A stretch of DNA of 63,764 nucleotides, filler included, from Conidiobolus incongruus B7586 (lineage: Eukaryota), in NCBI GenBank assembly GCA_000697335.1. It is 25 parts of 25 records of this genome, joined end to end, with 100 filler letters (N's around TTAATTAATTAA, not from the genome) between each part and the next. Parts side by side here need not be neighbours in the genome. Positions count along the whole stretch, not along the records: positions 55,363 to 56,976 come from JNEM01005955.1; 24 more parts are not named here. One strand, written 5' to 3'. The translations under genes were made by a program, and so were the position numbers. The notes beneath the pieces were generated by a model that was not told where the DNA came from, did no database searches, and saw only the letters and a list, made by a program, of their open reading frames with translations. Below are positions 1,768-63,764 of this stretch, one piece after another. Within the stretch, counting starts at the first letter, position 1, and each line of letters opens with the position of its first letter.

Positions 1768-1958
1768 TCAATTTATATCTTATGAAACCAATTCAATAAA
1801 TAACCAAATTAATTCTCAATTATTTTATTTTCTTGATTATTAATGATATTTTTCAACTTATACCAATTTGAAATACAAGCATAAAATTAAATATAAATTT
1901 ATTTTAATATCAAACATATTTCAATGAACAAAATATAATAATTATTAATTTAAATAAC

Positions 1959-8640: not shown

Positions 8641-8916
8641 TTAACGAGTTATTTTAAATGGTTTTATTAAAATATCAAGGTGTAGGGCTTGGCCCTGATC
8701 GAGATGATCTTCGAGCGAATAGATGCTCAATGACTAATTTATAGCATGGTTAGTCCTTTTCCAATTTGCTGAAACTCCAATTACTGTTATAGTCTGGAAT
8801 TTTTCATTGTGCAAAGATTGTACCTGGTATTTATTAGTGTATTACATTCGCAATCATGACGGACGGTTAACGTTGAATGGCCAGCGGATCTCCCGATCAG
8901 TGACAATATTATTCAT
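8641..8916 (-). CDS. Candidate 3-exon microprotein, 58 aa; join complement(8641..8733,8785..8823,8872..8916)
   Basis: Two phase-0 introns of 48 nt (GTTAAC..ACTAAT..CAG) and 51 nt (GTAATT..ACTAAC..TAG), matching the 47-55 nt introns of ITPA and TSPO. Each removes an in-frame stop. Product: MNNIVTDREIRWPFNVQSLHNEKFQTITSLSIYSLEDHLDQGQALHLDILIKPFKITR. Confidence 0.4.
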
Positions 8917-31362: not shown

Positions 31363-32317
31363 ATTATTATTTCTATATATATTTTATATTATATTAGATA
31401 TTATTTATATTTTAAAACAAACACTCCTAATTAAAAAAATCCAATTATAAAATTAAATAAGAATTTAAATATCACCACAAAAATTAAATTAAAATTAATT
31501 AAAGTAAGGTTATTAAATTTAATAAAATAAAAATATATTTTAGTAAATTTAATAAATAAGTTAAATATTTTAAAAAAGATAAAAAATTACTTTATAACAA
31601 TTATATTATTTGAACCCAAAAATATAATAATAGGTTAATTATAATTTAAGGATATATATTATCTTCTAGTATAAAATATCTTTATAAAGTTAATAAAGGA
31701 ATTAATATTGAGTTATATTAAAATATTCTCAATAATAAATTAAAAGAAACTATTAAATAATATAAGTTAAATAAATCAAATGTTATTTTTTAACATGATA
31801 ATACCCTTTGTTATATTATTGTTTCTATTACCAAATGGTTTAAAAAAATAAAATAATAGTTATAAAGTAATTTTTTAATCTTTTATTTTAAATTTAGTTA
31901 AACATTTTTAAATTTAAATAAATAAAATAGTTAAAATTTTCCCACCAACAAAAAATTTAAATAATATTTAAAATATATTTAAAAAGCTCAAATCAAAATT
32001 AATCTTTAATATAAGAAATTAATTGACTTTATATCTTTTAAACTTAAGGAAGTTAATGTAACAAATAATAAATATATTAAGTTTCAGTTTTCTTTTTATA
32101 AATAAAATATATAAATATATCACTTATCTTAAATAAACTTTGAATTTTAATATATTAGTTAAAAGTTTATATAATTTAATTTAATATATTTTATGATAAA
32201 TAAATAATATAAGTTTAATATATATCTTAATATAAATTGATTTAATTAAGATTTAAAAAAATTATTGATAAAAATATATACAATTATAATATTATAACTT
32301 ACTTTTGTAGGCAAATA
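31363..32317 (+). mobile_element. Tc1 relic (transposase + right end)
   Basis: Colinear with the family; ends ataacttacttttgtaggc, a degenerate TIR. Confidence 0.88.
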
Positions 32318-32439
32318 TATTTTATATTTGAAATTACTTATTTTTGAAAATAATTTATATATAGTTTATTTCTTTAATTTATAAATTTTATAATAATGTT
32401 AAAAAATTAAAAATTAGATATTTTTTTGAAATAATCATT

Positions 32440-33984: not shown

Positions 33985-35692
33985 TAAAGGTGGATATACT
34001 AGGTTTTAATTTTTTTTATCACCAAAAACCTATAAATTTATAACTCACCTTAGGTAAAATTTAAGTATTTATATTTTAACCAATTAATAGCTAAATATCA
34101 TCATATAATGATATATATTATTAATATATATAATAATTTCCAAAAATAAGTAATAAAATTAAAAATATATTTTTTTTAATTAATAACTAAAATAATTATA
34201 TATATTGGATTATTTAAAAGTATAATATAAAATTAACATATATTATTTGATAATAAATAAAAATATTTAAAAATATTAAACAAATTACTAGCAAAAATAT
34301 TAACCCTTAATATTTAATCAAAATAAATATTAAATTCATGGGTTTTTAAGATAAAAGGATGAATTTAAAAATATAACCTTATTTTTATTTTCTTGATAAT
34401 ATTTTATATAATATTTTTGAATATATTAAAATCTTGTTCTTAATATTATTACACTTAAATTACTTTATAAAAAAAATTCTTTTATATATATTAATTAACT
34501 TTAAAAAAAGTTAAATTAACTTATGATACTATTAGAGTTACTAATGTTAGCTAGTTTATTATAGTTAAAGCTATTAAGAATATCAATAAAAATATATTTA
34601 AATTTAAAATTAAATGCTTTAAAATTATAAATAAATATATTGAGCAATATATTTATAAATCAATTAATATAAGTAAATATGATATTGTTTTAAAAATATA
34701 ACAAGAATTATAAAATTATATAATAATATTAATTAGTATTGACATTATTATATATGTTTTATATAAATATAAATATTATTTATATTTTAAGATAAAACAC
34801 CCCTAATTAAATAAATCCTATTATAAAATTTGGTGGGAATTTGAATATTATTATTAATATCAAATTAAAACTAATTAAAATAAAATTATTTAATTTAGTA
34901 AAACAAAAATATATCTTAATAGATAAAATAAAAAAACTAGATGCTTTAGAAAAGATATAAAATTATTTAATTACTATTATGTTATTTTAACCCAAAAATA
35001 TAATAATAGGTTAATTATTATTAGGGATATATATTGTATTTAAATAAAAAATATCATTATAAGGTTAATAAATAAATTAATATCAAAATATATTAAAGAA
35101 TTCTAAATAATAAATTGAAAAAAAACTATTTAATAATATAGATTCAACAAATTTAATATTATTTTCTAACAAGATGATCCTTTTGATATATTATAGCTTT
35201 TAATATCAAATAGCTTAAAAATAACAAGATTATAATTATAAAATAACTTTTTTAATCTTTAAACTTTAATTTGATAGAATATTTTTAAGATCAATTAAAA
35301 AAGCTTTTAATATTTTCCTTTTAACAAAAGATTAAAATTAGTTTTAAAAATATATTCAAGAATTATAAAATAAGATTGATTTTTTTTAATATAAAAAGTT
35401 AGTTAATTCTATATCCCACAAATTTATAAAAGTTAGAAAAGTTTATGATAGATATATTAGATTATTTTTTTTATTAAAAAACCTACAAATTTATAACTCA
35501 CTTTAAATAAAATTTAAGAGTTGATATTTTAACTAATTAATAACTAATAATTATTATTTAATTAACTTATTATTAATAAATATATATAATTTTAATTATT
35601 TAATTTAAGTTTATTTCATTAGATATAGATTAAGTTATATATAAAAATATAAGTATTTTTGATTTTATGATTTATTTTTGCAAGTTAATATA
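33985..35692 (+). mobile_element. Tc1 right-end fragment (33985-34130) followed by a full-length Tc1 relic (about 34132-35690)
   Basis: Both ends with outer and inner GTGAGTCATAA-derived repeats, a full decayed transposase, and TA at 35691-92. Confidence 0.9.
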
Positions 35693-35792: not shown

Positions 35793-36316
35793 ATAATATA
35801 TAGTATTAAATTTAAATGAAATAAATTATAGATAAAATTTAAAATAGTAATAATTAAGTTTAATATAAATAATTATTAATTTCTAATAGGTTTTTAATAA
35901 TTTTATTATTATTATTATATAAGTATAGTAGTAATTAAACTAATATAGTATAAAAGAAGATTTAATATAAAAATAATATGTGTAAAATGTGGTAATATAA
36001 TAAAGTTATAGTATACAAGTATAAACAAAGTTTAATTAAACTTTAAATTAGGATGAGTTACTAATATATTAAAATTTATATTAGGTAGTGTTAATATCCT
36101 ACAATATTAATAGAATATAGTTTTAATTTTAGAAATAGTATAAAAGTAAAAAATAATAAGAATTGTGAAGAAAAAAAAGAGACCTAGTTTATTAAATAAT
36201 TTAATGTTATTTATACAATTAATTTAACTATATAAGTATAAATTAATCATATAATTTATAGTTAATTGGATTATATGAAAGTGTATATAAAAATTTAAAG
36301 AACTAGTCTCTTAACA
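35793..36316 (-). repeat. LTR of the Gypsy element, partial
   Basis: Colinear with 45784-46344; terminus aactagtctcttaaca. Confidence 0.8.
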
Positions 36317-37959
36317 AAAGAATAAAACTTGATTAGTAAATATAATTTACAAAATTATACAATTTTTATCTAAAGTAATTTTAAATTTTAATATATATAA
36401 TCTTGATTATTTTGAATAATATATAGTACTATTATTGAATTTATATTTTATATTCAAAATACAATAGAATACTAAAGTTTTTAATTAATTACAGTTGCTG
36501 AAAGCTTATCAAAGATTCTGAGCAAAACTATTTTTCAAATTCCAATTAAATATCAGTATATTTTTAATTTTGTCAAACACAAACTTATAAAAACAATTCT
36601 TTAACTCTGAAAATCTAAGTGATATGATTTTAGCAAAGTCTTAGTTTTAAATTAATATGAATATTTATATATGAGGAGTACAAATCCAACTTGATAAATC
36701 AAATCTTATATGGCTGTCCCTTAATTTAAATCCTTATCAGAAGAATATATAAACCTGAAATATATTTTTACTTACATCAAATATATATTTCATATCGTAT
36801 TTTGTGATAACACGAGGATAGTATTTATATATAATTATTTACATTAAATTATGATGCTATAATAGAATTCCATATTCAATTTGTCGTGAAAATTTTTAAA
36901 CTTCAAAAAGTAGTAGATTTATTGAATAAATTTAATATCTAAATATTATTGTGGTGAGTAATAACATGTATTTATACCTAGAGTGATATCATTTAATAAT
37001 AAATTTTAAAGGTACAATTTTTATTAATATTGATGGAATTCAATAATGTTGAAATGTAATCAAAATAACTAATTTCAAGTTAACGTGATTTTACAAAAAG
37101 CTGATATTAAGTACAATAATCATGTTAGAAGTAGTTGTATTTAAAATATCCAGGTATATTATATCAAATAAATATATATAGTAAATTTTAATATTTATTA
37201 ATTTTATCCCATTTTCAAATAAAATTTCAATTTAATAAAAGAAATTCCAAATTCACAAAATTAAATAACATTAATATTTTGATCATTTTATATCATTTAT
37301 TTTAATCAATATATTTACTTTTAATAAACCTTGGATTATTAAAATATTAATAAACCCTACATTAAATTGTATTATGGATATGATGATAAATTTAAGCATT
37401 AACCTTATTGTTTAGATATTTGATCCATTTGCCGTTGTTTCAAAGATTAGAATATGTATTCAAATATTTTAATTTTATCAAGTTATGTATATTATTTGAT
37501 CAATTTGATTATTTATGGCTTAGATATATCTCCATTAAGAAATTCTGGTTCAATTTTTAAACATATTAAATATCTTACTCATATGATATTAAAAACTTAT
37601 TTCAATTTGGTTTAATTATTTTATAATTCAATAAGGATAACAAGTTAAAGAAAATATAATTAAATACAAATGACGACCCATTGATAAAATACAAAATTCA
37701 TAATTGATTCAATAAGTGAATTATTTTGATATTTCTTTTGAATGACGTCACATTAATCAAGTATAAATTTTAATTTTATATTAATAGCTGAACTGATAAA
37801 AAATATCAAATTAAATCTAGTACTATACTATCATCACGAATTAAAGTTTCTATGGTAAAATTAATTTTTAAGGAAATTTATAACCCAATGATCTTATTAA
37901 TCGCGAATAAATTACCATTTTAACTAACAATTGGAATTTTGATGATAAACATACTCTTT

Positions 37960-38230: not shown

Positions 38231-39358
38231 ACACATACAATATTTCAAATGCTAGTAATACTATATTTTTTTGAACTGATTAATATGAATAATATTAAAA
38301 TTTCTTATTATTATTCTAAAATAATTATTTCATCTTCATTTTTTATTTAATAGAATTAATGATGAATTTACAGCTGTTATAAACTTTATATTCAAATTCT
38401 CAGTTACTTTTTTCAATGATCCAAAATCACATGTTTTCAAAGCATCAATTCTAATATTTATTAGTCAAAATTTTGAATTATATTAAAATACTGAAGCGAA
38501 TTAATTAAACCAAAGCCAATACTTTGAGAATAGATCATTTGGATTACATACTAAGTCTAGTTTCTATATAATTTTAATTTCTTAATATTATCAATAGTTT
38601 TTTAATTAATAATTTCATAAACCTTAACCCTATTTGTAAATCAACCAACAATCTTACATTTAATTCCCCTAATGTTGATATCAAATTTATCTTATATACC
38701 TAGCATTTATTTTTATTTAATCCTGTTTATTCATTTTTAATTTTAATACACTGTCAATTGAGTATTAAAGTAGATATTATTAATTGATGGATCAATATTA
38801 ATATTTATGTCAAGCATAATAATTAGATATTTTATAATTTTTTAAATAGAAATTTGATAACAATTTAATATATTATTATAAAAATCAAACAATGGTAAAA
38901 TTTCAAAACTTAATATTTTTAATTTATGATTAATAAAAATTATAAATAATATAGAATTAACACTCTTTTTTATTATTAATAGCATTTTGCAATATTTTGG
39001 CAAATTTTCAATATTTAAAAATATTTCTTTATATTAAAAATTATAATTTAATATTTTATAATTNNNNNNNNNNNNNNNNNNNNNNNNNNNNNNNNNNNNN
39101 NNNNNNNTTAATTAATTAANNNNNNNNNNNNNNNNNNNNNNNNNNNNNNNNNNNNNNNNNNNNACCTTAATTAAAATAAATTAACTAAAATAATAATTTT
39201 AATAATCTTATAAGTTAATTGATTTTTAGTATTATATTAATTAATATAAAAAAGAATTTTTTTAGATAAAGATTAAAGTATCATAAAATTAATTTTAAAA
39301 TATTAGCTTAATAATTTAATAATATATGTTATATAATAGAAGAAAAAGAAAATTTATA

Positions 39359-40855
39359 TACCAACCTATAAAAGTAAGTTATAAAATCAAAAATATATAT
39401 ATTTTAATTAATAACTAAAATAAATATATATATTAGATTACTTGAAACTATAATATATAATTAAGGTATATTATTTAATAATAAATAAATATATTTAGAT
39501 ATATTTAGTAAATTATTAATAGAAATATTAACCTTTAATATTTAACCAAGATAAGTCATAAATTTGCAGGTTTTTGAAATAAAGGGATATATTTAATAAT
39601 ATATAGCCATATTTTTTTTTGTTATTATATTAATTATATTTTATAGATATACTAAATTTTTTTATTAGTATTATTATACTTAAATCCCTTTTCAAAAAAA
39701 TCTATTTATAAATTAATTAACTTTAAAAAGAAAATAAATCAACTTATAATATCATTAGAATTATTAGTGTTAATTATTTTATTATAGTTTTAACTGTTAA
39801 GAATAATAATAAAAAAATATTTAAACTTAAACTTAAGTATATTAAAATTATAAATAAATATAATGAGAAGTATATTTATAAGTTAGTTAATATAAGCAAA
39901 TGTAATACTATTATAGAAATATAATAAGAATTATAAAATTATACAAAAATATTATTTAATTTTAATATTATTATATGTATTTTATATTAACATAGATATC
40001 ACTTATATTTTAAGAAAAAACACCCTTAATTAAAGAAATCCTATTATAAAGTTAAATAAAAGTTTAAATATTATTACTAATATTAAATTAAAATTAATTA
40101 GAGTAAGGTTAGTTAATTTAATGAAACAAAAATATATTTTAGTAAATTTAATAAAAAAGCTAAATACTTCAAAAAAAATATAAAACTATTTAATAATCAT
40201 TATATTAATTTTACTTTAAAGTATAATAATAGGTTAATTATTATTTAAGCATATATATTATCTTTAAGTATAAGGTATTTTTATAAAACTAATAAGGGAA
40301 TTCATACTAAAATATACTAGAGTATTTTAAATAATGAATTAAAAAAATATTAAATATTATAAGTCAAACTAATTTAATATTATTTTTAATGAGATAATAT
40401 ATTTTGTTATATTATAAATTTTACTACTAATTAGCTTAAAAATAATAAGATAATAGTTATAAAGTAGATTTTTTAATCTTTTAATTTTAATCTAATTAAA
40501 TATCTTTAGAATTAGTTAAAAAAAGTTATTAAAGCTTTTTTTAACAAAAGATTTAAATCAACTTTAAAAATATATTTAAGAAGTATAGAACAAGATTAAC
40601 CTTTCTTAATATAAGAAGTTAATTGATTTTATACCCTATAAACTTAAAGAAGTTAAAAAAGTTAAAGATAGATACACTAAATTTTAATTTTTTTTATCAC
40701 TAAAAACCTATAAATTTATAACTCATCTAAAATAAAATTTAAAGATTTATATTTTAACCAATTAATAGCTATATATTATCATTTAATGATATATATAATT
40801 AATCAATATAATAGATTTTAATTATTTAATTTAAATTTATTATATTAAATATTAA
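39359..40855 (+). mobile_element. Tc1 relic, near full length
   Basis: TA + taccaacctataaaagtaagttataaaatcaaaa left TIR, full decayed transposase, right inner repeat at about 40715. Confidence 0.9.
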
Positions 40856-40955: not shown

Positions 40956-42292
40956 AATATTATTATTTAAAATAATAATTTACAATAATAATATTAGTAT
41001 ATAAATATATAATTTAGTATAAACAAGATTTAAGTAATATTTGTTTTATATACCCTTTTAACACTTAAACCCATAAATTTATGACTTATTTTATTTAAAA
41101 TTTAAGATTTAATATATTAAATATAATTAAATATAACCTATTATAATCATATAATATACTTTAATTATATATTTTAATTTAAATTAATTTAGTTAAGAAT
41201 TATTTAAGTTATAAATAAATATATAAATGATTTTTATTTTATAATTTATTTTTGTAAGTTAGTGTATATTTTTGTTTTATTAAATTAAATAACATTACTT
41301 TAATTAGTTTTAATTTAATATTAGTAATAATATTTAAATTCTTACTTAATTTTATAGTAGTATTTCTTTAATTAAGGGTGTTTTTTCTTAAAATATAAGT
41401 AATATCTATGTTAATATAAAGCATATATAATAATATTAGTGTTAACTAATATTCTTGTATAGTCTTATAGTTTTTGTTATATTTTTACAATAATATTATA
41501 TTTGCTTATATTAACTAACTTATAAATATACTCTTTATTATATTTATTTATAATTTTAACCTATTTAAGTTTAAGTTTAAATGTTTTTTTATTATTATTC
41601 TTAATAACCTTAATTATAATAAACTAGCTAACATTAGTAATTCTAATAATATCACTAGTTAATTTATCTTTTTTATAAAGTTGATTAATATATAAGTAGA
41701 TTTTTTTAAAGAGGGATTTAAGTATAATAATACTAATAAAAAATATTTAGTATATTAATAAAATATAATATAAAATAATAATAAAGAGAGAAAAAAGATA
41801 TGGTTATATATTGTTAAATATATCCTTTTATCTCAAAAACCCATAAATTTATAATTTACCTTAGTTAAATATTAAAGGTTAATATTTTTGCTAATAATTT
41901 ACTAAATATATTTAAATATATTTAATTATTATTAAATAATATACTTTAGCTATATACATTAACCCACAAAAGTGAGTTATAAAATCAAAAATATATATAT
42001 TTTAATTAATAACTAAAACAATTGTATATATTAGATTACTTTAAACTATAATATATAATTAAGGTATATTATTTAATAATAGATAAATATATTTAAATAT
42101 ATTTAGTAAACTATTAGCAAAAATATTAACCTTTAATAATTAACTAAGGTGAGTTATAAATTTGTGGGTTTTTGAGATAAGGGGATATATTTAACAATAT
42201 ATAACCATATCTTTTTTTTCTCTTTGTTATTATTTTATATAATATTTTATAGATATACTAAATTCTTTTTATTAGTATTATTATACTTAAAT
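40956..42292. mobile_element. Nest of three Tc1 fragments (two minus, one plus starting at 41957)
   Basis: TA|cattaacccacaaaagtgagttataaaa at 41955 interrupts the left end of an opposite-strand copy. Confidence 0.85.
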
Positions 42293-42451
42293 NNNNNNNN
42301 NNNNNNNNNNNNNNNNNNNNNNNNNNNNNNNNNNNNTTAATTAATTAANNNNNNNNNNNNNNNNNNNNNNNNNNNNNNNNNNNNNNNNNNNNTTAAAAAA
42401 TATTATTAAAGTTTTTTTTATTATAAAAGATATAAATTAATTTTAAAAATA

Positions 42452-43548
42452 TACTAACCTATAAAAATAAGTTATAAAATCAAAAACACTTATATTTTTA
42501 CTAATAACTTAATTAATATTTAATAAAATAAACCTAAATTAAATAATTAAAATCTATTATATTTATTAATTATATATATTATTAAATTATTATATTTAGT
42601 TATTAATTAGCTAAAATATAAACCCTTAAATTTTACCTAAGGTAAATTATAAATTTATAGGTTTTTGGTGATAAAAAAAAATTAAAACTTAATATATCTA
42701 CTATTAGCTTTTTTAACTTCTTTAAGTTTATAAGGTATAGAATTAATTAACTTCTTATATTAAAAAAAGTTAATTTTGTTTTATATTTCTTAAATATATT
42801 TTTAAAATTGATTTAAATTTTTTGTTGGGGGGAAAACTTTAATAGCTTTTTTTAACTAATCCCAAAGATATTTAATTAAATTAAAGTTAGAAAATTAAAG
42901 AAATTATTTTATAACTATTATTTTATTATTTTTAAGTTATTTAGTAGTAGAAGTTATAATATAACAAGTAATATTATCTTACTAGAAAATAACATTAAAT
43001 TTATTTAACTTAAATTATTCAATGATTTTTTTTTAATTTATTATTTAAAATACTTTAATATATCTTAATATTAATTCCTTTATTAACTTTATAAAGATAC
43101 TTTACACCTAAAAACAACATACATCCTTAAATAATAATTAATTTATTATTGTATTTTTAGGTAGAATTAACATATTAGTTATAAAGTAATTTTATATCTT
43201 TTTTAAAATATTTAACTTTTCTATTAAATTTATTAAAGTATATTTTTATTTCATTAAACTAAATAACTTTATTTTAATTAGTTTTAGTTTAATATTAGTG
43301 ATGACATTTAAACTCTTATTTAACTTTACAATAAGATTTCTTTAGTTGGGGGTGTTTTTTTTTAAAATATAAGTGGTATCTACACTAATATAAAATATAT
43401 ATAATAATATCTATGTTAACTAGTATTCTTATATAGTTTTATAATTCTTGTTATGTTTCTATAACAATACTATATTTGTTTATATTAACTAACTTATAAA
43501 TATACTTCTTATTATATTTATTTATAATTTTAACACACTTAAGTTTAA
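42452..43548 (-). mobile_element. Tc1 relic inserted at TA inside another Tc1 transposase fragment (42393-42451)
   Basis: TIR tactaacctataaaaataagttataaaatcaaaa followed by the reverse-complement transposase. Confidence 0.88.
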
Positions 43549-46344: not shown

Positions 46345-46679
46345 AATATGGTAATTCTTTTTATTTGTTTGAAAATGAAAATCTTTGATATTATTAGCCT
46401 TATTTATTTTATAAGAAATATAAAATAAAATTAAAATTTAAATTATTAAATAAAATATNNNNNNNNNNNNNNNNNNNNNNNNNNNNNNNNNNNNNNNNNN
46501 NNTTAATTAATTAANNNNNNNNNNNNNNNNNNNNNNNNNNNNNNNNNNNNNNNNNNNNTATTAATAATAAAGGAGGCTATTAATTTTATATTATTCATTA
46601 ATTTTTATATATTATTTATTAATTTATTTGTTTAATTTTAATTTTAAAATTATGCCATTACTTAATTTCTGCACTAATA

Positions 46680-47819
46680 TATTTAATTAAGTTAAAATAA
46701 AGAAATTAAAGAAATTATTTTATAATATTATTTTATTATTTTTAAGTTATAGAATAATAGAATTTATAATATAATAAAAGGTATTATCTTATTAAAAAAT
46801 ATTATTTAATTCATTTAACTTATATTATTAAGTAGTTTTTTTAATTCATTATTTAAAATTTTTTAATATATTTTAATATTGATTCCTTTATTAATTATAT
46901 AAATATACCTTATATCTAAAGATAATATATATCCTTAAATGATAATAAACTTATTATTATATTTTTAGGTTATAATAATATAATGGTTAAAAAGTAGTTT
47001 TTTATTTTTTTTCAAATATTTAACTTTTTTATTAAATTTAATAGAATATATCTCTGTTTTATTAAATTAAATAACCTTACTCTAGTAAATTTTAATTTAA
47101 TTTTAATATTAATATTTAAACTCTTGTTTAATTTTATAATAGGATTTTTTTAGTTAAAAGTGTTTTTCCTTGAGATATAAGTAATATCTATTCTAATATA
47201 AAATATATATAATAATATTAGTACTAATTAATATTGTTATATAGTTTTATAATTCTTTTACTTCTATAATAGTATTATATTAACTTATATTAACCAATCT
47301 ATAAATATACTTTTATCATTTTTATCTATAATCTTAATATACTTAAATTTTAATTTAAATGTTTTTTTAACATTATTCTTAATAACCTTAACTATAATAG
47401 ATTAACTAATATTAATAGTTCTAGGAATCTTACAAGTTGATTTATTTTTATTATAAAATTGATTAATATATAAATAAACTTTTTTAAAGAGAGATTTAGG
47501 TATTAAAATATTTATTTTAAAATATTAGCTTAATAGTTTTATAATATATATAATATTATAAAAATATATATATATAAGTTTTGTTATTTATAAACTTTTA
47601 ATTTATAAACCTATAAATTTATAACTTATCTTAGTTAAATTTTAGGTTTTGATATATTAACCAATAATTAATGAAATATAATCAAATATAGTTAGTTATA
47701 ATCAAGTAATATAGGTAAGTTATTTATTTTAATTTAAATTTATTTAATTAAGAGTTATTTAAGATATAAGCAAATATATAAGTAATTTTGATTTTATAAC
47801 TCACTTTTATTGGCTAGTA
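46680..47819 (-). mobile_element. Tc1 relic with left end
   Basis: Ends ttttataactcacttttattggctagta|TA. Confidence 0.88.
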
Positions 47820-48319
47820 TATATTTATTTAAAATCCCTATTTTTTTTAATTCAATGATATTAAATTTAATTAATCCCTTTAATTTAAAATTATTAAAAT
47901 AATTATAAATATTGATTATAAAATTAGTAAGGAAATTATATTATTAAAATAAGATAATATTGCTTATATTAATAAATATAATATTATTCAAAATATATAT
48001 AATAATTTGAAATTTTAGAAATTATAATTAAATTAATATCAAAGGAAAATATACTAAATATTATATTATCAGCTAAAATATTATTAATTTTTATAAAAAA
48101 AATCTATACAAACTATACAAATAAAAAGTTTTAAATTATTATNNNNNNNNNNNNNNNNNNNNNNNNNNNNNNNNNNNNNNNNNNNNTTAATTAATTAANN
48201 NNNNNNNNNNNNNNNNNNNNNNNNNNNNNNNNNNNNNNNNNNAATCTAATATAAATAATTGTTTTAGTTATTAATTAAAATATATATATTTTTAATTTTA
48301 TTACTTATTTTTATTAGTT

Positions 48320-49911: not shown

Positions 49912-51975
49912 ATGCCTGCTATTGAACTACGTGTTAAAGGTAAAACATTTGCTGCTTTTTATGACTTGGACCCCACTGAAGATCTTCCAAAAACATGGAG
50001 GACTTGCACCAAAGTCAAAGATGCATTAGAACAAGGTGATAGATTAGAAAATCTCTCTTGGCGTTTATGGCATTTACAAAAGTCACTGTATCGTGAACTC
50101 AAAGATACAGCACTTTGGTCAGCAGAATTCAAACGCTTATCACAAATTGCCACTCGTAAACTTGAAGAATCCGGAGTTTTAACCTTCCCCAGAAAGAAGC
50201 ATCGCGCTTTAAAAAAAAAGATAGTTCCTCATCCTCCGGGAGTTTTCCATCCTCCCAATATCCAGCATACTCTGCCTGGATCCCCGTCCAAGAGATTCAG
50301 AGCTGACGATTCCATATCTCATAATACACAAACAGTACTCCAACCTCATCCTGGTTTAAACACTACTACAGTTAAAATTGAGCCTTCAGATGAATCTACT
50401 CAACATCGTCCAATACTAATTAAAAATAATACAGATCCTTCAATTTCTTCAGAACACACCCAGACCACCAAGCCGAATCATAACGATTCTACAAATTCTA
50501 ACCCTTTCGCTATATCTTCCCAGGCTAATAGCTTTAACCAAGCACCAGGTTTTAATGGAGCACCTTCAGGCTTAAGTCATCAGCAGATGATTAGTGCAAT
50601 GTATCATCCTCTTGCTGGACATCCTCAATGGATTAATACGGCTCAGCTAAATTTCAACGCAGCATACTCCATGCTAAATTATAATCCATCTAACCCTCTT
50701 CTGTTTCCAGCTGGCAGAGGCGCATTCACCAATCAACCGCCCTCGTTCAATATTGCACAACCTAGTTTTTCTAACTCACAAGTTAACTCACAAGTTTCAT
50801 CTCCGCGAGGAACCAATCAACCCCATGAATATTTCCCCGCTGGCTTTGCTGCACCATTTCCTCTTAACATGCAATTGGCTAATCTTTATAATTCTTCAGC
50901 AGCAGTAGCCCAAGGTGTTTCGTCATTAAACCCAGCCTCGGCACAATCCACTCCTGCTCAAGAAAACGCTCCTAATGATCCCAAATCTGGTTTTAATCAA
51001 AGCCAAGCTTCTTCAACAGGATCTACACTTCCAAGCCAAGCTAACAAATCCACAGAGCCTGGATCATCTATTCCCAATAATCAAATTTCTTCTGAATTAG
51101 CTACTATTCATGAAACAGAAGAAAGTTCTAAGCACAATTCAACAAATCAGCAATCCAATACTGATGACGCAAGCACTAAAAATAGTAATAGTAATAATGA
51201 TAACAAAAAGGGAGAGGGACGACCTGCCTATCGAGATAATGCTGAGCCAGATCCTAATAGCGTTTGCTCCAATTGTGGCTGTACATCTACTCCTCTTTGG
51301 CGCAGGTCCGTCAATGATGATTTATTATGCAATGCTTGTGGTCTGTATTCTAAACTTCACAAAATTCCTCGACCTAAATCACTCAAAGACAACTCTCATC
51401 GCAAGGATACTTCTAATACTCACTCTAATTCTGTCTGCACTAATTGTGGCACTAATACTACTCCTCTATGGCGTCGAAATCCTAACGGTCGGACTCTTTG
51501 TAATGCTTGTGGTTTATATTATAAACTTCATAACTCAGATCGTCCATTGTCACTCAAGACCGATAGCTACAAAAAGCGCACAAGATCTGATCATACTAAA
51601 CGCAAGAAAGCCAAACTTCTGCAAGATCAGCAGGATGATTCCAATCCCGACTTAGGAAGCGATACTGGTTATTATGATTCGACTAACGATGCATACAAGG
51701 ATGATGACGAAGATGCAATTCAAAATTATAACGATGGCCTAAAGAGCACAATTGATATCACCAACCAGTCGGCATCGAATAATCCCTTGTTAGATGTCCA
51801 CTCCACAGGTTTAGCAATTCCTCCCAATTTCCCTCCAAATGCCCAAGCCCAATATCTTATGTATTCACAATGCCCTGATGTTTCACAAATTGATATCAAT
51901 GACTATGCACAATATTTGGAATTTGAATCAACGCATCCTTCGCAGCTGGACTCTAGCTATTACCAGCAGAACTGA
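49912..51975 (+). CDS. GATA-type transcription factor with N-terminal DUF1752 motif and two C-X2-C-X17-C-X2-C zinc fingers (AreA/Gat1-related), 687 aa
   Basis: [26 protein letters not shown] (DUF1752); [22 protein letters not shown] and [34 protein letters not shown], followed by a basic tail. Confidence 0.95.
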
Positions 51976-53923: not shown

Positions 53924-55262
53924 ATGCTTAAATTTCTCTTTAAAAAAGTTTATTTATATATTATTCATCTATATAATAAAAATAAATCAATTTATAACAT
54001 TATTAGAATTATTAATATTATTTAATCTTCTATAATTAAAGTTATTAAGAATAATATTAAAAAAACATTTAAACTGAAACTTAAGTATATTAAAATTATA
54101 AATCGATATAATGAAAAATACATTTATAAATTAATTAATATAAGTAAATATAATAATATTATAAAAATATAGCAAGAATTATAAAACTATATAATAAAAT
54201 TAGTGAGTATTAATAATATTATATATGTTTTATATTAGAATAGATATTACTTATATTTCAAGATAAAACACCCCTAACTAAAATGTCTTATTATAAGATT
54301 AAGCAAAAGTTTAAATACTAATACTAAAGTTAAACTATCATTAATTAAAGTTACTTAATTTAATAAAGCAAAAATAAATCTTAATAAATCTAATAAAAAA
54401 ATTAGATATTTCAAAAAAGATAAAAAAAATACTTTATTACCATTATGTTATTATAAACCAAAAATATATTAATAAGTTAATTATAATTTTAGGATATATA
54501 TTATATTTTGATATATGATATTTTTATAAGGTTAATAAGGTAATTAATATTAGGATATATTAAAATATTTTAAATAATAAATTGAAAAAAAAATATTGAA
54601 TAATATAGGTTAAATAAATCAAATATTATTTTCCAACAAGATAATACCTTTTGTTATACTATAAATTCTATCATTAAATTGCTTAAAAATAATAAAATAA
54701 CTATTATAAAATAGCCTCCTTAATCTTTTAATCTTAACCTAGCTGAATATCTTTAAAATCAATTAAAAAAATTAATTAAAACTTTTCTTCTAATAAAAAA
54801 TTTAAATTAACTTTGGCAATATATTTAAGAAACTTAGAATAATATTAGTTTTACTTTATATAAGAAGCTAGTTAACTTTATAACTTATAAATTTAAAGAA
54901 ATTAGAAAAATAAAAAATAGATATATCAGATATTAATTTTTTTATTAATATCAAACTCTATAAGTTTGTAACTTATCTTAAATATATTTTTAATTTTAAT
55001 ATATCAATTAATAATTCATTAAATTTGATTTAATATATTATATTATAAATAAAAAATATATACTAGCCTATAAAAGTGAGTCATAAAATAAAAATCATTT
55101 ATATATTTACCTATAACTTAAACAGTTCTTAACTTTATTAATTTAAATCAAAATATATAATTAAAGTATATTATCTAATTATAATAGGTTATATTTAATT
55201 ATATTTAATATATTATTGGTTAATATATCAAATTTTAAATTTTAAATAGGGTGAGTCATAAA
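53924..55262 (+). mobile_element. Tc1 relic with a second copy's left end inserted at 55061
   Basis: IFQQDN motif at about 54627; TA|tactagcctataaaagtgagtcataaaa at 55059. Confidence 0.9.
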
Positions 55263-55362: not shown

Positions 55363-55408
55363 TTTGTTAAAAAGTTATATAAAACAAAAATTACTTAAAT
55401 TTTTTTTA

Positions 55409-55447
<39 letters not shown>

Positions 55448-56732
55448 TTAATATTTTAAATTATTATTTTAAATAATATTAATATTAAAATACCTAAATC
55501 CCTCTCTAAATAGATTTATTTATATATTAATCAACTCTATAATAAAGGTAAATTAACTTGTGAGATTATTGGAATTACTAATGTTCGCTAATTTATTATA
55601 GCTAAAGTTGTTAAAAATTATAGTAAGGATATATCTAAATATAAACTTAAATATATTAGGATTATAGATAAATATAATGAAAAGTATATTTGTAGGTTAA
55701 TTAGTATAGATAAATATAATACTATTATAGAAGTACAAAAAGAATTACAAGACTATATAGGAATATTAGTTAGTATTGATACTATTATATATATTTTACA
55801 TTATAATAGATATTACTTATACCTTAAGAAAAAACACCCCTAACTAAAAAAGTCCCATTATAAAGCTAAGCAAGAGTTTAAATGTCATCACTAAAGTTGA
55901 ACCAAAACTAATTAGAGTAAGGTTATTTAATTTGATAAAACAAAAATATACTTTAGTAGATATAATAAAAAAGCTAGATGCTTTAGAAAAGATAAAAAAC
56001 TACTTTATAACAATTAGGTTATTTTAACCCAATAATATAATAATAGGTTATTTATAGTTTAAGGATATATGTTATCTTTTAATGTAAGATATCTTTGTAA
56101 AATTAATGGGGGAATTAATGCTAAAATGTACTAAAATATTTTAAATAATTAATTAAAAAAAACTATTGAATGGTATAGGTTAAGTAAATCAGAGGTTATT
56201 TTCCAACAAGATAATACCCTTTGTTATATTGCTATTTTTACTACCAAATGGTTTAAAAATAATAAAATAACAGTTATAAAGTGACTTCTTCAATCCCCTA
56301 ACTTTAATCTAATTGAATATCTTTGGGATCAGTTAAAAAAAACAGTTAAAGCTTTCCCACTAGCAAAAAATTTAAATAAGCTTTAGGAATATATTTAAGA
56401 AGCTTAGAATATAATTAATCCTTTCTAATGTAAAAAGTTAATTGACTCTATACCCTATAAACTTAAGGAAGTTAAGAAAGCAAAAGGTAGATATACTAAG
56501 TTTTAACTTTCTTTTTATAACCAAAATATATAAATTTATAACTTACCTTAGGTAAAATTTATATTTTAATATATCAATTAAAAGTTAATATAATTAGATT
56601 AAATATACTTAATTATAAATAATATAAGTTTATTATATGTTTTAATTTAAATTAATTTGATTAAGAATTAATAAAGCTATTGATAATAATATAAATAATT
56701 ATAATTTTATGACTCACTTTTGTGGGCTGATG
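55363..56732 (+). mobile_element. Best-preserved Tc1 (DD34E) relic
   Basis: VI(W)(S)D(E)TKI; (M)V(W)G(C)M; IFQQDN(A)(P)C(H)(T)A..34 aa..QSP(D)(L)N(P)IE(H)LWDQLKK; IDS(M)P..LKEVKKAKG(G)YTKF*; right TIR atgactcacttttgtgggctgatg|TA. Confidence 0.93.
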
Positions 56733-57076
56733 TATATTAATTATATAGTCTAATATAAATCTATTTAAATTTGAATTAATTAAGATATTAATAGAAATAT
56801 TTATTTTTTTTAATTTTATAACTTATATTTACAAGCTAGTATATATATAAATTATTAATTAAAAATTATTTATTCAAAAATATAAATAAAAGTACTTTAT
56901 TAATTAATTATCATTAAAAATTGAAATAATAAAAAAAATCATTAATTATATTTAAAATAATTAATTTCCAATATATNNNNNNNNNNNNNNNNNNNNNNNN
57001 NNNNNNNNNNNNNNNNNNNNTTAATTAATTAANNNNNNNNNNNNNNNNNNNNNNNNNNNNNNNNNNNNNNNNNNNN

Positions 57077-57283: not shown

Positions 57284-58639
57284 AAATCTAAACTTTATAT
57301 GTTTTATTTAAATATATATTATTTATTACAAGTCTCTTAAAATATAATAAAATTTTAAAGATTATAATCTTGAATTTATTTAATAATTGATTTATTCTTT
57401 TTATTCAAATAATTTAAGAGTTATTTTTATAAAATATACTAAAATAAGAAATTAAATTTAAATAATATTATAAATCAAATGTTTTACTCACCTTTTAGTT
57501 TTAATTTTCTATTAAGGTTCTAGATATAATCTATCTATAAATATCAGGAATAATTTTTATATAATGGAAAATTCTAAAATATTAAAAAAATTAAAGCTTT
57601 AATATATTAACCAAGGATCAATTATATTATAAAATAATTATTAGATAGATATTTACTTAAGATTATTTTAATCAAAGTTAAACCATAAATTTTAATATTT
57701 TAATAAAACTTCTCTAAAGTGTCTAGTTAGTTATTTTGGGTTTATTTTATTAAGCTTATATAATTTTTATTATAAGATTATTTTCTTAAAGCCTAATAAC
57801 AAAATTAATTATAAATATATTTTGAAATAATAATAAATATATAAATATAAATAATTATTAATTTTATAATAGATTTTTAATTATTTTATTATTATTAATA
57901 TTATATAGATATAATAATAGTTAAATTAATATAATATAAATAAAATTAAATATAAAGAAGATTTAATATGATATAAATAAATTAAATATAAAAACAATAC
58001 TATATAGAATATAATAATATAATATAAAATTATAAACAAGGTTTAATTAAACATATATTAAAATAAGTTACTAATATAATAAAATTTATATTAGATAGTG
58101 TTANNNNNNNNNNNNNNNNNNNNNNNNNNNNNNNNNNNNNNNNNNNNTTAATTAATTAANNNNNNNNNNNNNNNNNNNNNNNNNNNNNNNNNNNNNNNNN
58201 NNNTTCTAATTGGTATTCTTAACATAATCTAAAAATTTTTATTATTTTATATAATAATTATTAAATATATAAATCTGATACTATAAAAAACTTACCAATT
58301 CAAAATAATTGGAAAAAATTACCATATTGAATTTATTTCTTAAACTATAACTTATATAACTATAATTCCTTTAGGTAATTAAAAAACTAATTTAAAAAAA
58401 AATTTCTATAAAAAATTTAATTAGTTTGTAAAATATAAAATATTAGTTTATAATAAAAAGAATTAATTTTTAAATATTAAAAGTTTACTAAAAGTATAAC
58501 ATAAATTGATTAATATTAAAAAAAACTCTTATATTTATAATATATAATTATTTTTATATATTATAGATCTAAAAGTTAATTTATTTTCAATTGCAAAAAA
58601 TTCCCATTATTTAAATTATAAAATAATATCATTTAAATT

Positions 58640-59050
58640 GAATTAAAACTAATCAAAATAAAATTATTTAGTTTAATAAGATAAAATATATTTAAACAAA
58701 TTTAATAAAAAAGCTAAATATTTTATAAAAGATATTGAATTATTTTATAACTATTATATTACTTTAACTTAAAAATATAATAATAAGTTAATTATTATTA
58801 TCAAAATATATATAATATCTTTTGATATAAAATATCTTTATAAAATTTATTAAGGAATTAATATTTTATTATATAAGAGTATTTTAAATAATAAGATAAA
58901 AAACAAAATTGATTAATATAAGTTAAAAAAATTTAATATTATTATATATTTAAATATTATCCTCTATTTTACTTTTATTTCTATTACCAAATAATTTAAG
59001 AATAATAATATAATAATTATAAAATAGCTTTTTAAATTTTTTAACTTTAA
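58640..59050 (+). mobile_element. Tc1 transposase internal fragment between two mariner pieces
   Basis: Colinear with 55895-56305. Confidence 0.75.
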
Positions 59051-61499
59051 TTTATTACTCTATATTTTTAATAATGGGAATTTTTTGTGATTAAAAATAA
59101 ATAAACATTTGAATATATGATATATAAAAATAAATATATAATATAAATTTAATAGTTTCTTTTATTATTAATAACTTTTTGCTATACTTTTGGCAAACTT
59201 CTAACACCTAAAAAACNNNNNNNNNNNNNNNNNNNNNNNNNNNNNNNNNNNNNNNNNNNNTTAATTAATTAANNNNNNNNNNNNNNNNNNNNNNNNNNNN
59301 NNNNNNNNNNNNNNNNTTTATATATAAATATTTAAATATTTTTTAAGATTATTAATTTAATGATAATTTATCAAAATTTTAATTAATATTTTAATTTGGA
59401 ATAAAATTTAAATCAATTTGATAAAAATATTGGAATATCTTAAACTTGTATTAGTTTCTCTGATATTAAATTACTGTCCCTTTACCTTATAAAATGCAAT
59501 TTTAAAACCAAATTAAAATTTTGATTATTTGATTTATATATAATTTAAAACTCACAAATTTATAACTCAATTTAGTTAAATATTTTTTAGTATATTGGAT
59601 GTTAAAATACTAAATTATATAGGAAATTACTTATTTAAAAATATGTAATTGGTAATATTATTATATTTAATTATAAAGAATTAATTAAATAATATAAAAC
59701 TAATAATAATATTGTAAATTTTTAATAAATATTATATTTAAAACTAGGTTTAATTTTGATATGGATAAGTAAATTATTATTACTATTCAATATTTCATTA
59801 TTATTTTATTCAAGATTATATAAATTATATATAATAATTCATTAATTATAATCATAATATTAAAACTCATTTAAACAATTACAATATAAAAAAGTCAAAA
59901 TTAATTAGAAATATATGTTAACAGAATATATCCTGATATTCAAGCTATTTCCATAATATTATTGGATATTGATATCACTTTTGATTCACTTATATAGAGC
60001 AAAACCTCACTAGTCATCCATAGTTGTTTTCTTGACACTGATGAATTTTAACTTTTTATAAGGTGAGTCAAAATCCATGAATTAACATGGATATATAACC
60101 TTAGTTATAACTATCATATTAAAGTTACCTTTTTCCATCACAAATCCATTGGGATATGTTAATCTTTAAATTATTATTTATTAACTAGTAACTAAGTCAA
60201 GAATCAAGATAAAATTGAATTTTTGAAATTCTTAGTTAAAGATATTTAGGATATTTATGATTTATAAATAATACATTTTAAAAGTACTTATCCCTGCCTC
60301 TTGGTATATCTAGCAAGTATAATATTCAATTTTTGCCGAATTCTTGATTTTGAGAAACAAATCATTATGAATATATATAAATATAAATATATATTTATTA
60401 ATAAAAATTTAAGAATATAATTTTATATATTTTTATTTTTTATTTATATTAGAAATTTTTTAATATTGTTAATTATATAATATTGGATTAAATTAAAACA
60501 TTATTTATTATCATTCAAATATCAATATTTTAATAATATTCATAAAAATAGTTTTATAATAATATATTCTATTTATTAATAAATCAAAATTATTAATATG
60601 AAATGATATTAATTCAATATAATTTAAATTTAAAATCAAATATTATGATTATTTATAATAATAAAATATTATTCATAGTTTGCAAATTTTGATTTATTAT
60701 ATTATTTACGAAAAATATTAATATTTCAGGATTAAATCAATAATTAAATTCGTTATTATTAAGCAAGTTAGAAAATGTATCTTTAAAATATAATATCAAA
60801 TGAAAAGAATAATTATTATTATTATTATTATTTTTATTTTTTAATTCAAGAAATATTATAATACAATTCTTATTTTATATATAGATTAAATTTTTTTTTC
60901 AAATATTTTGATTAAATTATAGTGTTTTTATATTTATATTAATTGATTTTATTGAGTTAATATTTTATTTATTAAAAATATAATAAATTCTTGATTTATG
61001 AATTAAATAAGTGAATTAATAAATTTAATTGAAAATTATATTTAAAGTTACTTTATATTTTATATTTCAAAATGTTATCAATAATTAATTAAAAAAATAT
61101 AAATAAATATGATCTGGATTGATTATAATAAAGTTTTTTTCTAATGGATATTTTTGAAATTAAATCAATAGAAACTAATCATATATATATAAGAAATATT
61201 ATTAATAANNNNNNNNNNNNNNNNNNNNNNNNNNNNNNNNNNNNNNNNNNNNTTAATTAATTAANNNNNNNNNNNNNNNNNNNNNNNNNNNNNNNNNNNN
61301 NNNNNNNNTATTATATTATTTATTTAATTATATCACAAATTATTTATCAACATAATTTATTACTTAATAATAGATATTTGATGATTTTAACTGTTACTTT
61401 ATTTTTTATTAAATATCTTGATATAATAAGTAATTATTAATAATATAAAATTATATATCTTTTTATAAAATCGATTTATAAATTAAAAATATTTAAATT

Positions 61500-63764
61500 T
61501 CATTAATAACTTAATCAATTTTTAATTATATCAAATTTAATTAAATTATAAAATTATAATCTATTATATATTCTTTTTAGTCTTTATATTATTTAAGTCT
61601 ATAGGATATAAAATCAATTAACTCTTTATATAAAAAAAATCAATCCTGTTTTAACTTATTTATTATAAATATTAAGTTATATTTAATATTTAATTAAAAG
61701 CAAAATTGAAATTAATTTTTTTAATTCAAATAGTATTTATTCAAAGGAATATATTATGTAAAAAAATAATATCAAGGATAAATAATATGGTTTATTCTTT
61801 GACCTTTTATATTTGACTTCTTTGCTATAAAAAGTAATATATAGCATATATATAATAAGTTCCAATATATTTTAAATATAAGATATTATAAAACTAAGGT
61901 TAATTTTCAATTAAATTTTAATTTCATAATTAATATATTAAGATTGAATTTTAATTCAAATTATCAAATTAATTTCTTATAATTTATAACAAAAATACTT
62001 GATTAAATTAATATTAAAAGATAAAAAATAATTTATAACTTTTTTTCTTATATTTAAGCTATTTGATAATAAAGAGTTTAATATAATATTAAATATCATT
62101 ATATTAAAAAAGATATTTTATTTTGTAACCTATATTATCTAATATTTTTTAGGTTATTATCCCAAATAATCTAATATATATTAAAATTAATTTTTGTTAA
62201 TCTTAAAAATTACCTTATAATCAAAAAATATATCTATATCTTTAGATTTTAATTAATCAATTATAATATTATTAAATTAAATAATATTATTATTAAAAAA
62301 TAGTTTTATATTATTTTTTGGAGTAATTATTTATTTTACGAAATAAATTAAAATATATTTTTGATTTTTTAAATCAAATATCTTGTTTTTAATTAATATT
62401 ATCTTGATATTATTTGTAATATTTAAATTTCTATTTAATTTTTTAATTAGGTATTTTTATTTAGAATTATTTTATTCCAAATAAAAATAATATTTATTGG
62501 ATATAAAATATAAAATNNNNNNNNNNNNNNNNNNNNNNNNNNNNNNNNNNNNNNNNNNNNTTAATTAATTAANNNNNNNNNNNNNNNNNNNNNNNNNNNN
62601 NNNNNNNNNNNNNNNNTATATTAAATGATATAAAAAAATTATATATTTGATTTTATAATATTTAAAATTATATTTATAATTAGTTATAAACTTAAAAATT
62701 TTATTATTAATTAAAAATTAAAAATTAATATTTAATATATCTATTTTATATTATTTTTATCCTTTTCAAGTTTATAAGCTATAAAGTTAACTAGCTTTTT
62801 ATATTAAAAAAATTTATACTATTCTAATGATTTTAAATATATTTTCAAAGATTATATAAATATATATATTATAGGGAAATCTTTGATTATTTTTTTCATT
62901 AATTCTAAAATTATTTAATTAAATCAAGATTAGGAGATTAAAAAAGTTATTTTGTTATTTTTAAGTAATTTAATAATAAAGGTTATAATATAAAATAAGG
63001 TATTTTTTTTAAAAGATAATATTTACTTTTTTTAACATATTGAATTTTTTTAATATAATTTAATATTAATTCCCTTATTAACTTTATAAAGATAACTTAT
63101 ATTTAAAGATAATATATATCCTTAAACTATAATTGACTAATTTATATAATTTTGGGTTATAATAATATAATTCTTATAAAGTAATACTTAATCTATTTTA
63201 AAATATCTAGCTTTTTTGTTGAATTAATTAAAATATTTTTTATTTCACTAAATTTATTATACTTACTCTAGTTAGTTTTAATTTAAATTTAATAATGATA
63301 TTTAATCTCTTATTTAACTTTATAATAGAATATTTCATAATTAGTATTGGTTTTTCTTAAGATATAAATATTATTGATTTTAATATAAGATATATTTAAT
63401 AATATCTTTATTAATTAATTATTTTATATAGTTTTTGATTTTTAATTTAATTATTATAATAATATTATATTTAAGTATAATAATTAATTTATAATTATAG
63501 TTTTTACTATATTAAACTATAACCTTAATTTATATAAGTTTAAACTTAAGTTTTGTTATTAGTATTCTTTATAACCTATCAATATTAGATTAGCTAATAT
63601 TAATAATTCTAACAATCTTATAAATAGATTTGTTTTTATGATTAATCTAATTTATATTAAAATAAACTATTACAAAAAAGATTTAAGCATTATAATATTG
63701 ATTTTAAATATTTGCATAAATGTTTTATAATATATATAATATACCTAAAATCATAATATATAAA
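61500..63764 (-). mobile_element. Two heavily decayed Tc1 relics, on either side of the gap at 62517-62616
   Basis: Reverse-complement similarity to the Tc1 family transposase along its length. Confidence 0.7.

What the first reader, a model, noticed from the sequence alone, without database searches (positions are those of the whole stretch)
55363..56732. RIP-like, repeat-targeted C->T hypermutation, apparently in an early-diverging fungus
Seen: against conserved Tc1 motifs, essentially every lesion is C>T or G>A, on both strands within one copy. Examples are TGG>TAA/TAG/TGA, ATG>ATA, TGT>TAT, CAT>TAT, CCA>CTA, T-GAC>T-AAC, T-GAA>T-AAA, CCT>CTT and ACT>ATT. Reading frame and copy colinearity are largely kept. 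The same pattern hits three unrelated TE classes (Tc1, mariner, Gypsy), and different copies carry different subsets of the changes, while single-copy genes keep CpG/CpA. Known: RIP (RID/DIM-2 dependent, CpA>TpA biased) is described from filamentous ascomycetes, with RIP-like patterns in some basidiomycetes; ordinary CpG-methylation decay would not explain the CpA/CpT hits. Inference: short AT-rich introns and a two-finger DUF1752 GATA factor suggest a non-Dikarya (e.g. Entomophthoromycotina-like) host, which would make this an undescribed or independently evolved genome-defence mutator.
Basis: partly seen in the sequence, partly recalled or inferred. Interest (0 to 1): 0.9.

Follow-up and report, generated by a model that had tools for sequence, protein, structure and literature searches.

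The report
Transposon C-to-T hypermutation, Conidiobolus-like fungus
Dead jumping genes in this fungus, likely a Conidiobolus relative outside the groups known for repeat-induced point mutation, have had about half of their cytosines changed to thymine while genes and ordinary spacer DNA keep theirs, likely because a transposon-targeted DNA-methylating enzyme acts as a mutator.

Summary
Real, and confined to certain repeats. The stretch is a dead Tc1 transposon, one of 13 copies in a window of 25 joined contigs. Across 10 copies 54% of inferred ancestral C:G sites became T:A, against 2.6% C>A and 1.9% T>A; 53 of 62 codons at seven conserved Trp positions are stops. The target order is CpG > CpA > CpT >> CpC on both strands, so CpG decay alone fails. 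Single-copy spacer DNA keeps CpA and CpG. The host is likely a Conidiobolus relative (TSPO 67-70% to C. coronatus, next best 45%; one gene). Classical RIP is not shown: no strand-coordinated clusters, a clock is not rejected, and two high-copy repeats and a gene duplicate are spared. Best reading: transposon-targeted DNMT1/DIM-2-class methylation with deamination (enzyme untested). Not wholly new: an index-only RIP signal was published for Zoophthora (PMC11105155), and this scan noted similar scars in Endogonales. 'Essentially every lesion' is overstated (77%), and the Gypsy class is unconfirmed.

The parts
55490..56506 (+). Tc1-family transposase pseudogene (copy c20), frame intact, 17 internal stops; least mutated copy in the window (35% of inferred C/G lost)
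56507..56734 (+). 3' terminal region of the element, ending at 56732, followed by TA
   Evidence: sequence; homology to ends of other copies
55363..55489 (+). 5' part cut off by the contig start; holds a TA microsatellite
12483..13997 (+). Tc1 copy c3, near full length
22390..23523 (-). Tc1 copy c6
31363..32400 (+). Tc1 copy c8
33985..35692 (+). Tc1 copy c10
39164..40855 (+). Tc1 copy c12
40956..42292 (-). Tc1 copy c13 (internally deleted, with a head-to-head inverted end)
42393..43548 (-). Tc1 copy c14 (3 private transversions in 695 sites, yet 58% of inferred C/G lost)
46559..47940 (-). Tc1 copy c17
53924..55262 (+). Tc1 copy c19 (keeps the ATG)
58600..59070 (+). older Tc1 fragment c22 (left out of the core set)
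61896..62512 (-). older Tc1 fragment c24 (left out of the core set)
62617..63764 (-). older Tc1 copy c25 (left out of the core set)
11212..12374 (+). second family, mariner-like, copy c2 (other copies 43791-44990 -, 19895-21020 -, 58207-58628 +, 48324-48579 +); CpG o/e 0.00, CpA 0.68
35799..36444 (.). third repeat family, class unidentified (other copies 32797-33039, 45828-46453, 57077-58103); CpG o/e 0.08, CpA 0.55
1959..2507 (-). host TSPO gene used to place the organism; unmutated control, on the same contig as a Tc1 end (10668-11021)
49912..51975 (+). two-finger GATA factor with areA-like domain; unmutated control, on the same contig as a mutated mariner-like fragment
15251..16074 (-). Ham1/ITPA gene in pieces over several frames (introns), on the same contig as a mutated mariner-like copy and a Tc1 fragment
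1291..1770 (.). high-copy repeat that is spared: GC 0.39, CpA o/e 0.97, CpG 0.39
8587..8900 (.). high-copy repeat that is spared: GC 0.38, CpA o/e 1.03, CpG 1.07

Best explanation
These are dead Tc1 and mariner-like transposons of a likely Conidiobolus relative that lost about half of their cytosines by C-to-T change on both strands, in the order CpG > CpA > CpT >> CpC, likely because a transposon-targeted cytosine methyltransferase of the DNMT1/DIM-2 class marks them and the marked cytosines are then deaminated. Shown: the directional spectrum, the context order, the restriction to some repeat families, the sparing of genes and single-copy spacer DNA. Inferred: the host lineage (one gene), and a C>T rate at least about 12-fold above background (assumes spacer DNA is at equilibrium). 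Untested: methylation itself, the enzyme, how targets are chosen (silenced chromatin or small RNA is my guess) and whether it happens in mitosis or around resting-spore formation.
For: Leave-one-out over 10 copies, C counted as ancestral if in 2 or more other copies: C>T 1151/2117, C>A 54/2117, C>G 5/2117, T>A 97/5181, T>C at most 126/5181, T>G 15/5181. Loss by context: CpA 0.75 (95% CI 0.67-0.82), CpT 0.54 (0.49-0.59), CpC with the 3' C kept 0.20 (0.13-0.29); CpG with G kept 19/19 at the looser threshold. Independent direction from SB100X: at 7 Trp positions 53 of 62 codons are stops, TAG:TGA 19:1, p=4e-5. Composition: Tc1 copies CpG o/e 0.07, CpA 0.58; 4.9 kb of single-copy spacer 0.66 and 1.17; five ORFs 0.52-0.71 and 1.06-1.24. 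The Tc1 spectrum would give 3% GC at equilibrium; spacer has 20% and fourfold sites 30%. Genome-wide relatives: C>T+G>A versus C>A+G>T places 129:4 on Tc1, 141:40 on contig 1, p=3.5e-7. No same-strand clustering at any of 6 distance classes, and a constant clock of about 36-63 times the transversion rate is not rejected in the core 10 copies (2dlnL 3.5, 2 df): both fit independent hits. RID/Masc1 was not reported outside Dikarya, bar one likely bacterial gene (PMC5751038); all entomophthoralean genomes in PMC11105155 carry PF00145 genes; a DIM-2-dependent mitotic mutator is proven in Zymoseptoria (PMC8016269).
Against: With the 3 older copies added, a burst-plus-clock model beats the clock strongly (2dlnL 44.7), and c14 has 58% loss with only 3 private transversions in 695 sites. 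Core copies sit at 76-87% identity, near the recalled RIP pairing limit of about 80%. These three points favour a fast, self-limiting, RIP-like process. The Zymoseptoria DIM-2 mutator hits CpA almost only and spares CpG, unlike here. 5mC is described as scarce in Zoopagomycota (PMC11258239). Ancestral states come from the copies themselves, which form loose subgroups, and 96 of 308 inferred C/G columns rest on one copy. The clustering test loses power after many rounds.
Confidence: 0.55

Rival explanations
1. True RIP analogue: duplicated DNA is sensed by homology and mutated in bursts (around nuclear fusion or resting-spore formation) until copies fall below a pairing threshold, by an independently recruited methyltransferase.
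For: Load is high even in copies with few transversions (c14, c13). Burst-plus-clock wins when all 13 copies are used. Pairwise identity 76-87%. 18 of 19 short contigs have a positive composite RIP index, 0 of 6 mostly unique contigs (worked out). PMC11105155 reports 24.2% RIP-index windows in Zoophthora radicans. Spared repeats are short (314-480 nt here).
Against: No strand-coordinated clusters. CpG is the top target and CpT is close to CpA; a CpA-dominant simulation gives CpG 0.89 and CpA 0.14 against 0.07 and 0.58 observed. A gene with an 808-nt, 87%-identical duplicate stays open and CpA-rich, though selection could explain that. The older copies may be other subfamilies, which inflates the burst signal.
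Confidence: 0.27
2. No special mutator: neutral DNA in this AT-rich genome drifts to AT, plus ordinary CpG methyl decay.
For: Spacer DNA is itself 14-23% GC. The spectrum of unique DNA could not be measured directly: runs X5-X7 did not lay on it. A uniform C>T simulation comes part-way to the observed composition. Load rises with transversion count over 13 copies (rho 0.76).
Against: CpA o/e 0.55-0.68 in three repeat families against 1.17 in spacer. The implied equilibrium is 3% GC. The CpG-only simulation leaves GC at 0.36 and CpA at 0.99. 129:4 against 141:40.
Confidence: 0.08
3. A cytidine deaminase (AID/APOBEC-like) attacks single-stranded transposon DNA.
For: Almost pure C>T at non-CpG sites.
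Against: The 3' base sets the rate and the 5' base barely matters, whereas such deaminases are recalled to read the 5' base and to leave one-strand clusters; none found. Cut-and-paste elements have no long single-stranded stage (general knowledge).
Confidence: 0.05
4. The repeats come from a contaminating RIP-competent ascomycete, or are sequencing artefacts.
For: The window is a string of unlinked short contigs.
Against: Mutated copies share contigs with TSPO, ITPA and GATA. 13,126-14,981 contigs per run lay on 1.26 kb of Tc1 in three runs with matching tallies (one sample, possibly the source, so not independent). Single-copy pieces match with 0 differences.
Confidence: 0.05

Closest known systems
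Dim2-dependent C>T mutation of repeats in Zymoseptoria tritici (PMC8016269; abstract and section 11 read)
   Same: C>T transitions confined to repeats, well above background, non-CpG sites hit, no RID needed in principle.
   Different: There over 98% of C>T is at CpA and CpG is spared; here CpG is lost first and CpT is a major target. There the enzyme and mitotic timing are proven; here neither is tested.
Repeat-induced point mutation of Neurospora crassa and other Pezizomycotina (RID-dependent; PMC4352252 passages, PMC12543289 sections 8-9)
   Same: Dense C:G>T:A changes on both strands in repeats, CpA depletion, TpA gain, stops from Trp/Gln codons, copies driven to about 80% identity.
   Different: Likely non-Dikarya host; context CpG > CpA > CpT >> CpC instead of CpA-dominant; no strand clusters seen; some high-copy repeats spared; RID, homology sensing and premeiotic timing untested.
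RIP-index signal in Zoophthora radicans and other Entomophthorales (PMC11105155; passages read)
   Same: Same order of fungi, same kind of dinucleotide shift in repeats.
   Different: That evidence is a window index with stated caveats; the passages I saw give no alignments, no context order and no value for Conidiobolus. Here the changes are polarised copy by copy.
CpG-only or TpCpG decay of transposons in basidiomycetes; CpG plus CpA in Tuber melanosporum and Aspergillus (PMC4352252 passages)
   Same: CpG nearly erased in repeats; Tuber and Aspergillus combine CpG and CpA.
   Different: CpA and CpT signatures were tied there to RID/Masc1 in Ascomycota; here they appear, with strong CpT, in a lineage where RID was not found (PMC5751038).

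Membership tests
Tc1 transposon (IS630-Tc1-mariner) | Transposase homologous to Tc1-type DDE enzymes | tested here: met
   SB100X match E=2e-29 over residues 114-338; Pfam HTH_Tnp_Tc3_2 and DDE_3 below cut-off
Tc1 transposon (IS630-Tc1-mariner) | Terminal inverted repeats and TA target site | tested here: met
   5' and 3' ends align as inverted repeats in c3, c10, c12 at 70-74%; TA follows 56732; the 5' end of c20 is cut by the contig start
RIP (Neurospora type) | C:G>T:A transitions far above other changes in repeats | tested here: met
   0.544 versus 0.026 and 0.019 per site; 129:4
RIP (Neurospora type) | Unique DNA spared | tested here: met
   By composition; a direct spectrum of unique DNA was not obtained
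RIP (Neurospora type) | CpA-dominant context | tested here: not met
   CpG >= 0.9, CpA 0.75-0.78, CpT 0.54-0.64, CpC 0.20-0.30; CpA-dominant simulation misfits
RIP (Neurospora type) | Dense, strand-coordinated mutation per round (recalled feature) | tested here: inconclusive
   No same-strand excess in 6 distance classes; many rounds would blur it
RIP (Neurospora type) | Triggered by homology alone, any duplicate above about 400 nt and 80% identity (recalled thresholds) | tested here: inconclusive
   A 480-nt high-copy repeat and an 808-nt gene duplicate at 87% are spared; length limits or selection could explain this
RIP (Neurospora type) | Needs RID/Masc1; acts premeiotically | not testable with these tools
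   No genome held; RID not found outside Dikarya in PMC5751038
DNMT1/DIM-2-class methylation-driven mutation of transposons | 5mC on transposons in CpG and non-CpG contexts | not testable with these tools
   No methylome; only the mutational footprint is seen
DNMT1/DIM-2-class methylation-driven mutation of transposons | DNMT1/DIM-2-class gene in the host | not testable with these tools
   No genome; relatives carry PF00145 genes (PMC11105155)
DNMT1/DIM-2-class methylation-driven mutation of transposons | Independent hits on both strands, accumulating with time | tested here: inconclusive
   Both strands equal and unclustered; clock not rejected for 10 copies but rejected for 13
Ty3/Gypsy (third repeat family) | Recognisable gag/pol domains | tested here: inconclusive
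   No Pfam hit in the frames scanned; too decayed to class

The most novel reading that the evidence does not exclude
Entomophthorales evolved their own RIP: a RID-independent, homology-sensing mutator with a CpG > CpA > CpT >> CpC signature that kills each new transposon family in a burst and stops near 80% identity, showing that mutational genome defence arose outside Dikarya, possibly more than once.
Probability: 0.25. Interest if true: 0.85.

Novelty: new variant of a known kind. Interest (0 to 1): 0.57.

Why it matters
A 1,239-genome screen concluded that RIP-like signatures are unique to Ascomycota, but its only Entomophthoromycete was repeat-poor C. coronatus, called 'no_rip' (PMC12543289). 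The one contrary hint, in Zoophthora, is an index with caveats (PMC11105155). This window gives polarised, copy-level evidence of strong non-CpG hypermutation of transposons in a likely Conidiobolus relative, with a context order that an enzyme assay or methylome can test directly. If it is homology-driven it would be an independent origin of RIP; if methylation-driven it extends the mutagenic DNMT1/DIM-2 defence to Zoopagomycota.

Tried and rejected
Whole-genome search for RID, DIM-2, DNMT1/5 or deaminases: no genome held. Intact relatives of the transposase: none from the protein search (0 of 1574 candidates) or viral contigs (0 of 39 stretches); the HMMER representative search and the atlas never ran because the machines were busy. 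Conidiobolus DNA around TSPO in metagenomes: best of 80 loci was 44% identical, none useful. Spectrum of unique DNA from other isolates: X5-X7 laid only 5, 1 and 2 short pieces on contig 1 and X5 none on Tc1. No RNA holder listed. GATA tree of 45 rows: quick tree only, long branch, no placement; 76 of the 120 hits were left out. Rfam: 0 matches. Identity of the spared repeats and of the third family: no Pfam hit above chance. Terminal repeats within one copy as a clock: too diverged and A/T-rich to use. Bewick et al. 2019 was not held. Rejected: CpG-only decay, and a pure CpA-dominant process.

Full report
Layout. The window is 25 contigs joined by 24 artificial linkers of 100 letters. Six are mostly unique DNA; 19 are 1.0-1.7 kb, 11-17% GC and hold 10 CpG in 24.9 kb (summed). 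The finding is contig c20 (55363-56976). No whole genome is held.

What the stretch is. 55490-56506 (+) reads as one frame with 17 internal stops and matches Sleeping Beauty SB100X at E=2e-29. Twelve further copies lie in the window. I used 10 as the core set and left out c22, c24 and c25 as more diverged; non-homologous parts of c13 and c17 were masked. Core copies are 76-87% identical over 45 pairs. In three runs of one sample, 14,981, 13,262 and 13,126 contigs laid on 1.26 kb of c20. Summed depth was in the thousands against 7-14 for single-copy pieces. The tool warns that this is no copy number; hundreds of copies is my rough inference, and these runs may be the window's source.

Spectrum. 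c20 differs from the 9 other core copies by 1266 transitions in 1643 differences. Leave-one-out, with C called ancestral if 2 or more other copies keep it and both strands pooled: C>T 1151/2117, C>A 54, C>G 5; T>A 97/5181, T>C at most 126, T>G 15. Direction was checked against an outside protein. Of 9 Trp positions of SB100X in the aligned range I used 7 (one is Phe in this family, one lies beside a gap): 53 of 62 codons are stops, 5 are TGG, 4 other. Loss is the same at all three codon positions (0.51-0.53), as expected after death of the element. C and G loss are equal in each of 10 copies. Caveats: the copies form loose subgroups and 96 of 308 inferred C/G columns rest on a single copy.

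Context. Loss is 0.75 at CpA, 0.54 at CpT and 0.20 at CpC while the 3' C stands; CpG is lost in 19 of 19 cases where the G stands and in 0.90 otherwise at the looser threshold. TAG outnumbers TGA 19 to 1 at the Trp codons, which shows CpA above CpC without any inferred ancestor. The 5' base matters little. Simulations: CpG-only leaves GC 0.36 and CpA 0.99; CpA-dominant leaves CpG 0.89 and CpA 0.14; uniform gives CpG 0.27, CpA 0.75, CpC 1.29; the fitted order gives 0.00, 0.44, 2.62; observed 0.07, 0.58, 2.12. The truth lies between uniform and fitted.

Is it confined to repeats? Three repeat families have CpG o/e 0.00-0.08 and CpA 0.55-0.68; 4.9 kb of single-copy spacer has 0.66 and 1.17; fourfold sites are 30% GC. 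The Tc1 spectrum would settle at 3% GC; matching 20% needs a background C>T about 12 times lower (assumes equilibrium). Among genome-wide relatives, C>T+G>A versus C>A+G>T places are 129:4 on Tc1 and 141:40 on contig 1 (p=3.5e-7). The second tally comes from paralogues and other repeats, not from neutral unique sites, which I could not measure. The second and third families show the same direction but with few copies, an inflated C>T estimate and more transversions. Two high-copy repeats (1291-1770, 8587-8900) keep 38-39% GC and normal CpA, and their relatives show GC-rich loose ends. An ORF at 5826-7355 has an 808-nt duplicate with 108 differences and stays open. So the process picks families; it does not hit every repeat.

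Host. TSPO's best hit of 91 is 70% identical and its cluster holds C. coronatus KXN74787 (67% by direct alignment); all others are 45% or less. The 120 GATA hits listed are early-diverging fungi, Agaricomycetes, a few animals and unnamed rows, with no Pezizomycotina name; the tree did not place the gene. The host is likely a Conidiobolus relative other than that C. coronatus strain; the species was not determined. Mutated copies share contigs with TSPO, ITPA and GATA, which argues against contamination.

Mechanism. Evidence on timing is split. There is no same-strand clustering and a fast clock fits the core copies (2dlnL 3.5); with the three old copies a burst term is strongly favoured (44.7), though they may be other subfamilies. 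c14 lost 58% with 3 private transversions. A 3'-base-dependent order headed by CpG and ending in CpC matches the recalled preference of DNMT-type enzymes. I put transposon-targeted DNMT1/DIM-2-class methylation with deamination at 0.55, a homology-triggered RIP analogue at 0.27, drift at 0.08, a deaminase at 0.05 and contamination or artefact at 0.05.

Literature. [quoted passage not shown] PMC12543289 (abstract, sections 8-9, passages, supplement rows) finds the signature unique to Ascomycota and lists C. coronatus, 6% repeats, as no_rip. PMC8016269 (abstract, section 11), PMC5751038 (passages, section 17, supplement rows), PMC4352252 (passages), PMC13297926, PMC7862722 and PMC11258239 (passages) were also seen. 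Eight searches listed no copy-level description for Conidiobolus. Unseen material that may bear on this: the Zenodo tables of PMC12543289 and PMC11105155 (per-species methyltransferases and RIP values), Bewick et al. 2019 and subscription journals. Thresholds of Neurospora RIP, DNMT context order and APOBEC features are recalled. This scan holds 33 notes with similar words; the 8 shown concern Endogonales or similar Mucoromycota; none was found for this genome, this sequence or Conidiobolus.

Verdict. A real, strong, family-selective C>T hypermutation of transposons in a likely entomophthoralean fungus, with a context unlike canonical RIP. It works like RIP in outcome; membership is not shown. 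New variant of a known kind; interest 0.57.

Noticed in passing
window 1291-1770 and 8587-8900: Two GC-rich high-copy repeats beside genes (summed depth above 1400 against 15-40 nearby) that escape the CpA loss; no Pfam or Rfam identity.
   Followed up: partly
window 5826-7355 (-): 509-codon Cys-rich ORF with no Pfam match and an 87%-identical paralogue elsewhere in the genome (record 5).
   Followed up: partly
window 1959-2507 and 3676-4092 (-): Two tandem TSPO/MBR genes; all close non-Conidiobolus hits of the first are 45% or less and look largely prokaryotic where named.
   Followed up: partly
window 16991-17404 and 59934-60347: A 417-nt duplicate at 69% identity with one CpG per copy but normal CpA/TpG: possibly a milder, CpG-only regime in the same genome.
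   Followed up: partly
window 548-1290: Single-copy spacer next to a Tc1 end has no CpG in 743 nt but normal CpA: CpG loss may spread beyond the element.
   Followed up: no
window 41716-42292: Head-to-head inverted Tc1 ends, 92% alike over 241 nt, differing by 14 transitions and 5 A/T changes.
   Followed up: partly
window 21047-21150 and about 58600: Tc1 pieces abut mariner-like copies on c4 and c22, suggesting nested insertion.
   Followed up: no
window 26989-28692 (+): Pro/Ser-rich 567-codon ORF with no Pfam match.
   Followed up: no
window 9350-9622 and 37924-38097 (-): Two short related coding fragments on different contigs (74% over 111 nt), function unknown.
   Followed up: no
window 21251-22289: Very AT-rich contig c5 with CpA depletion but no assigned family.
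   Followed up: partly
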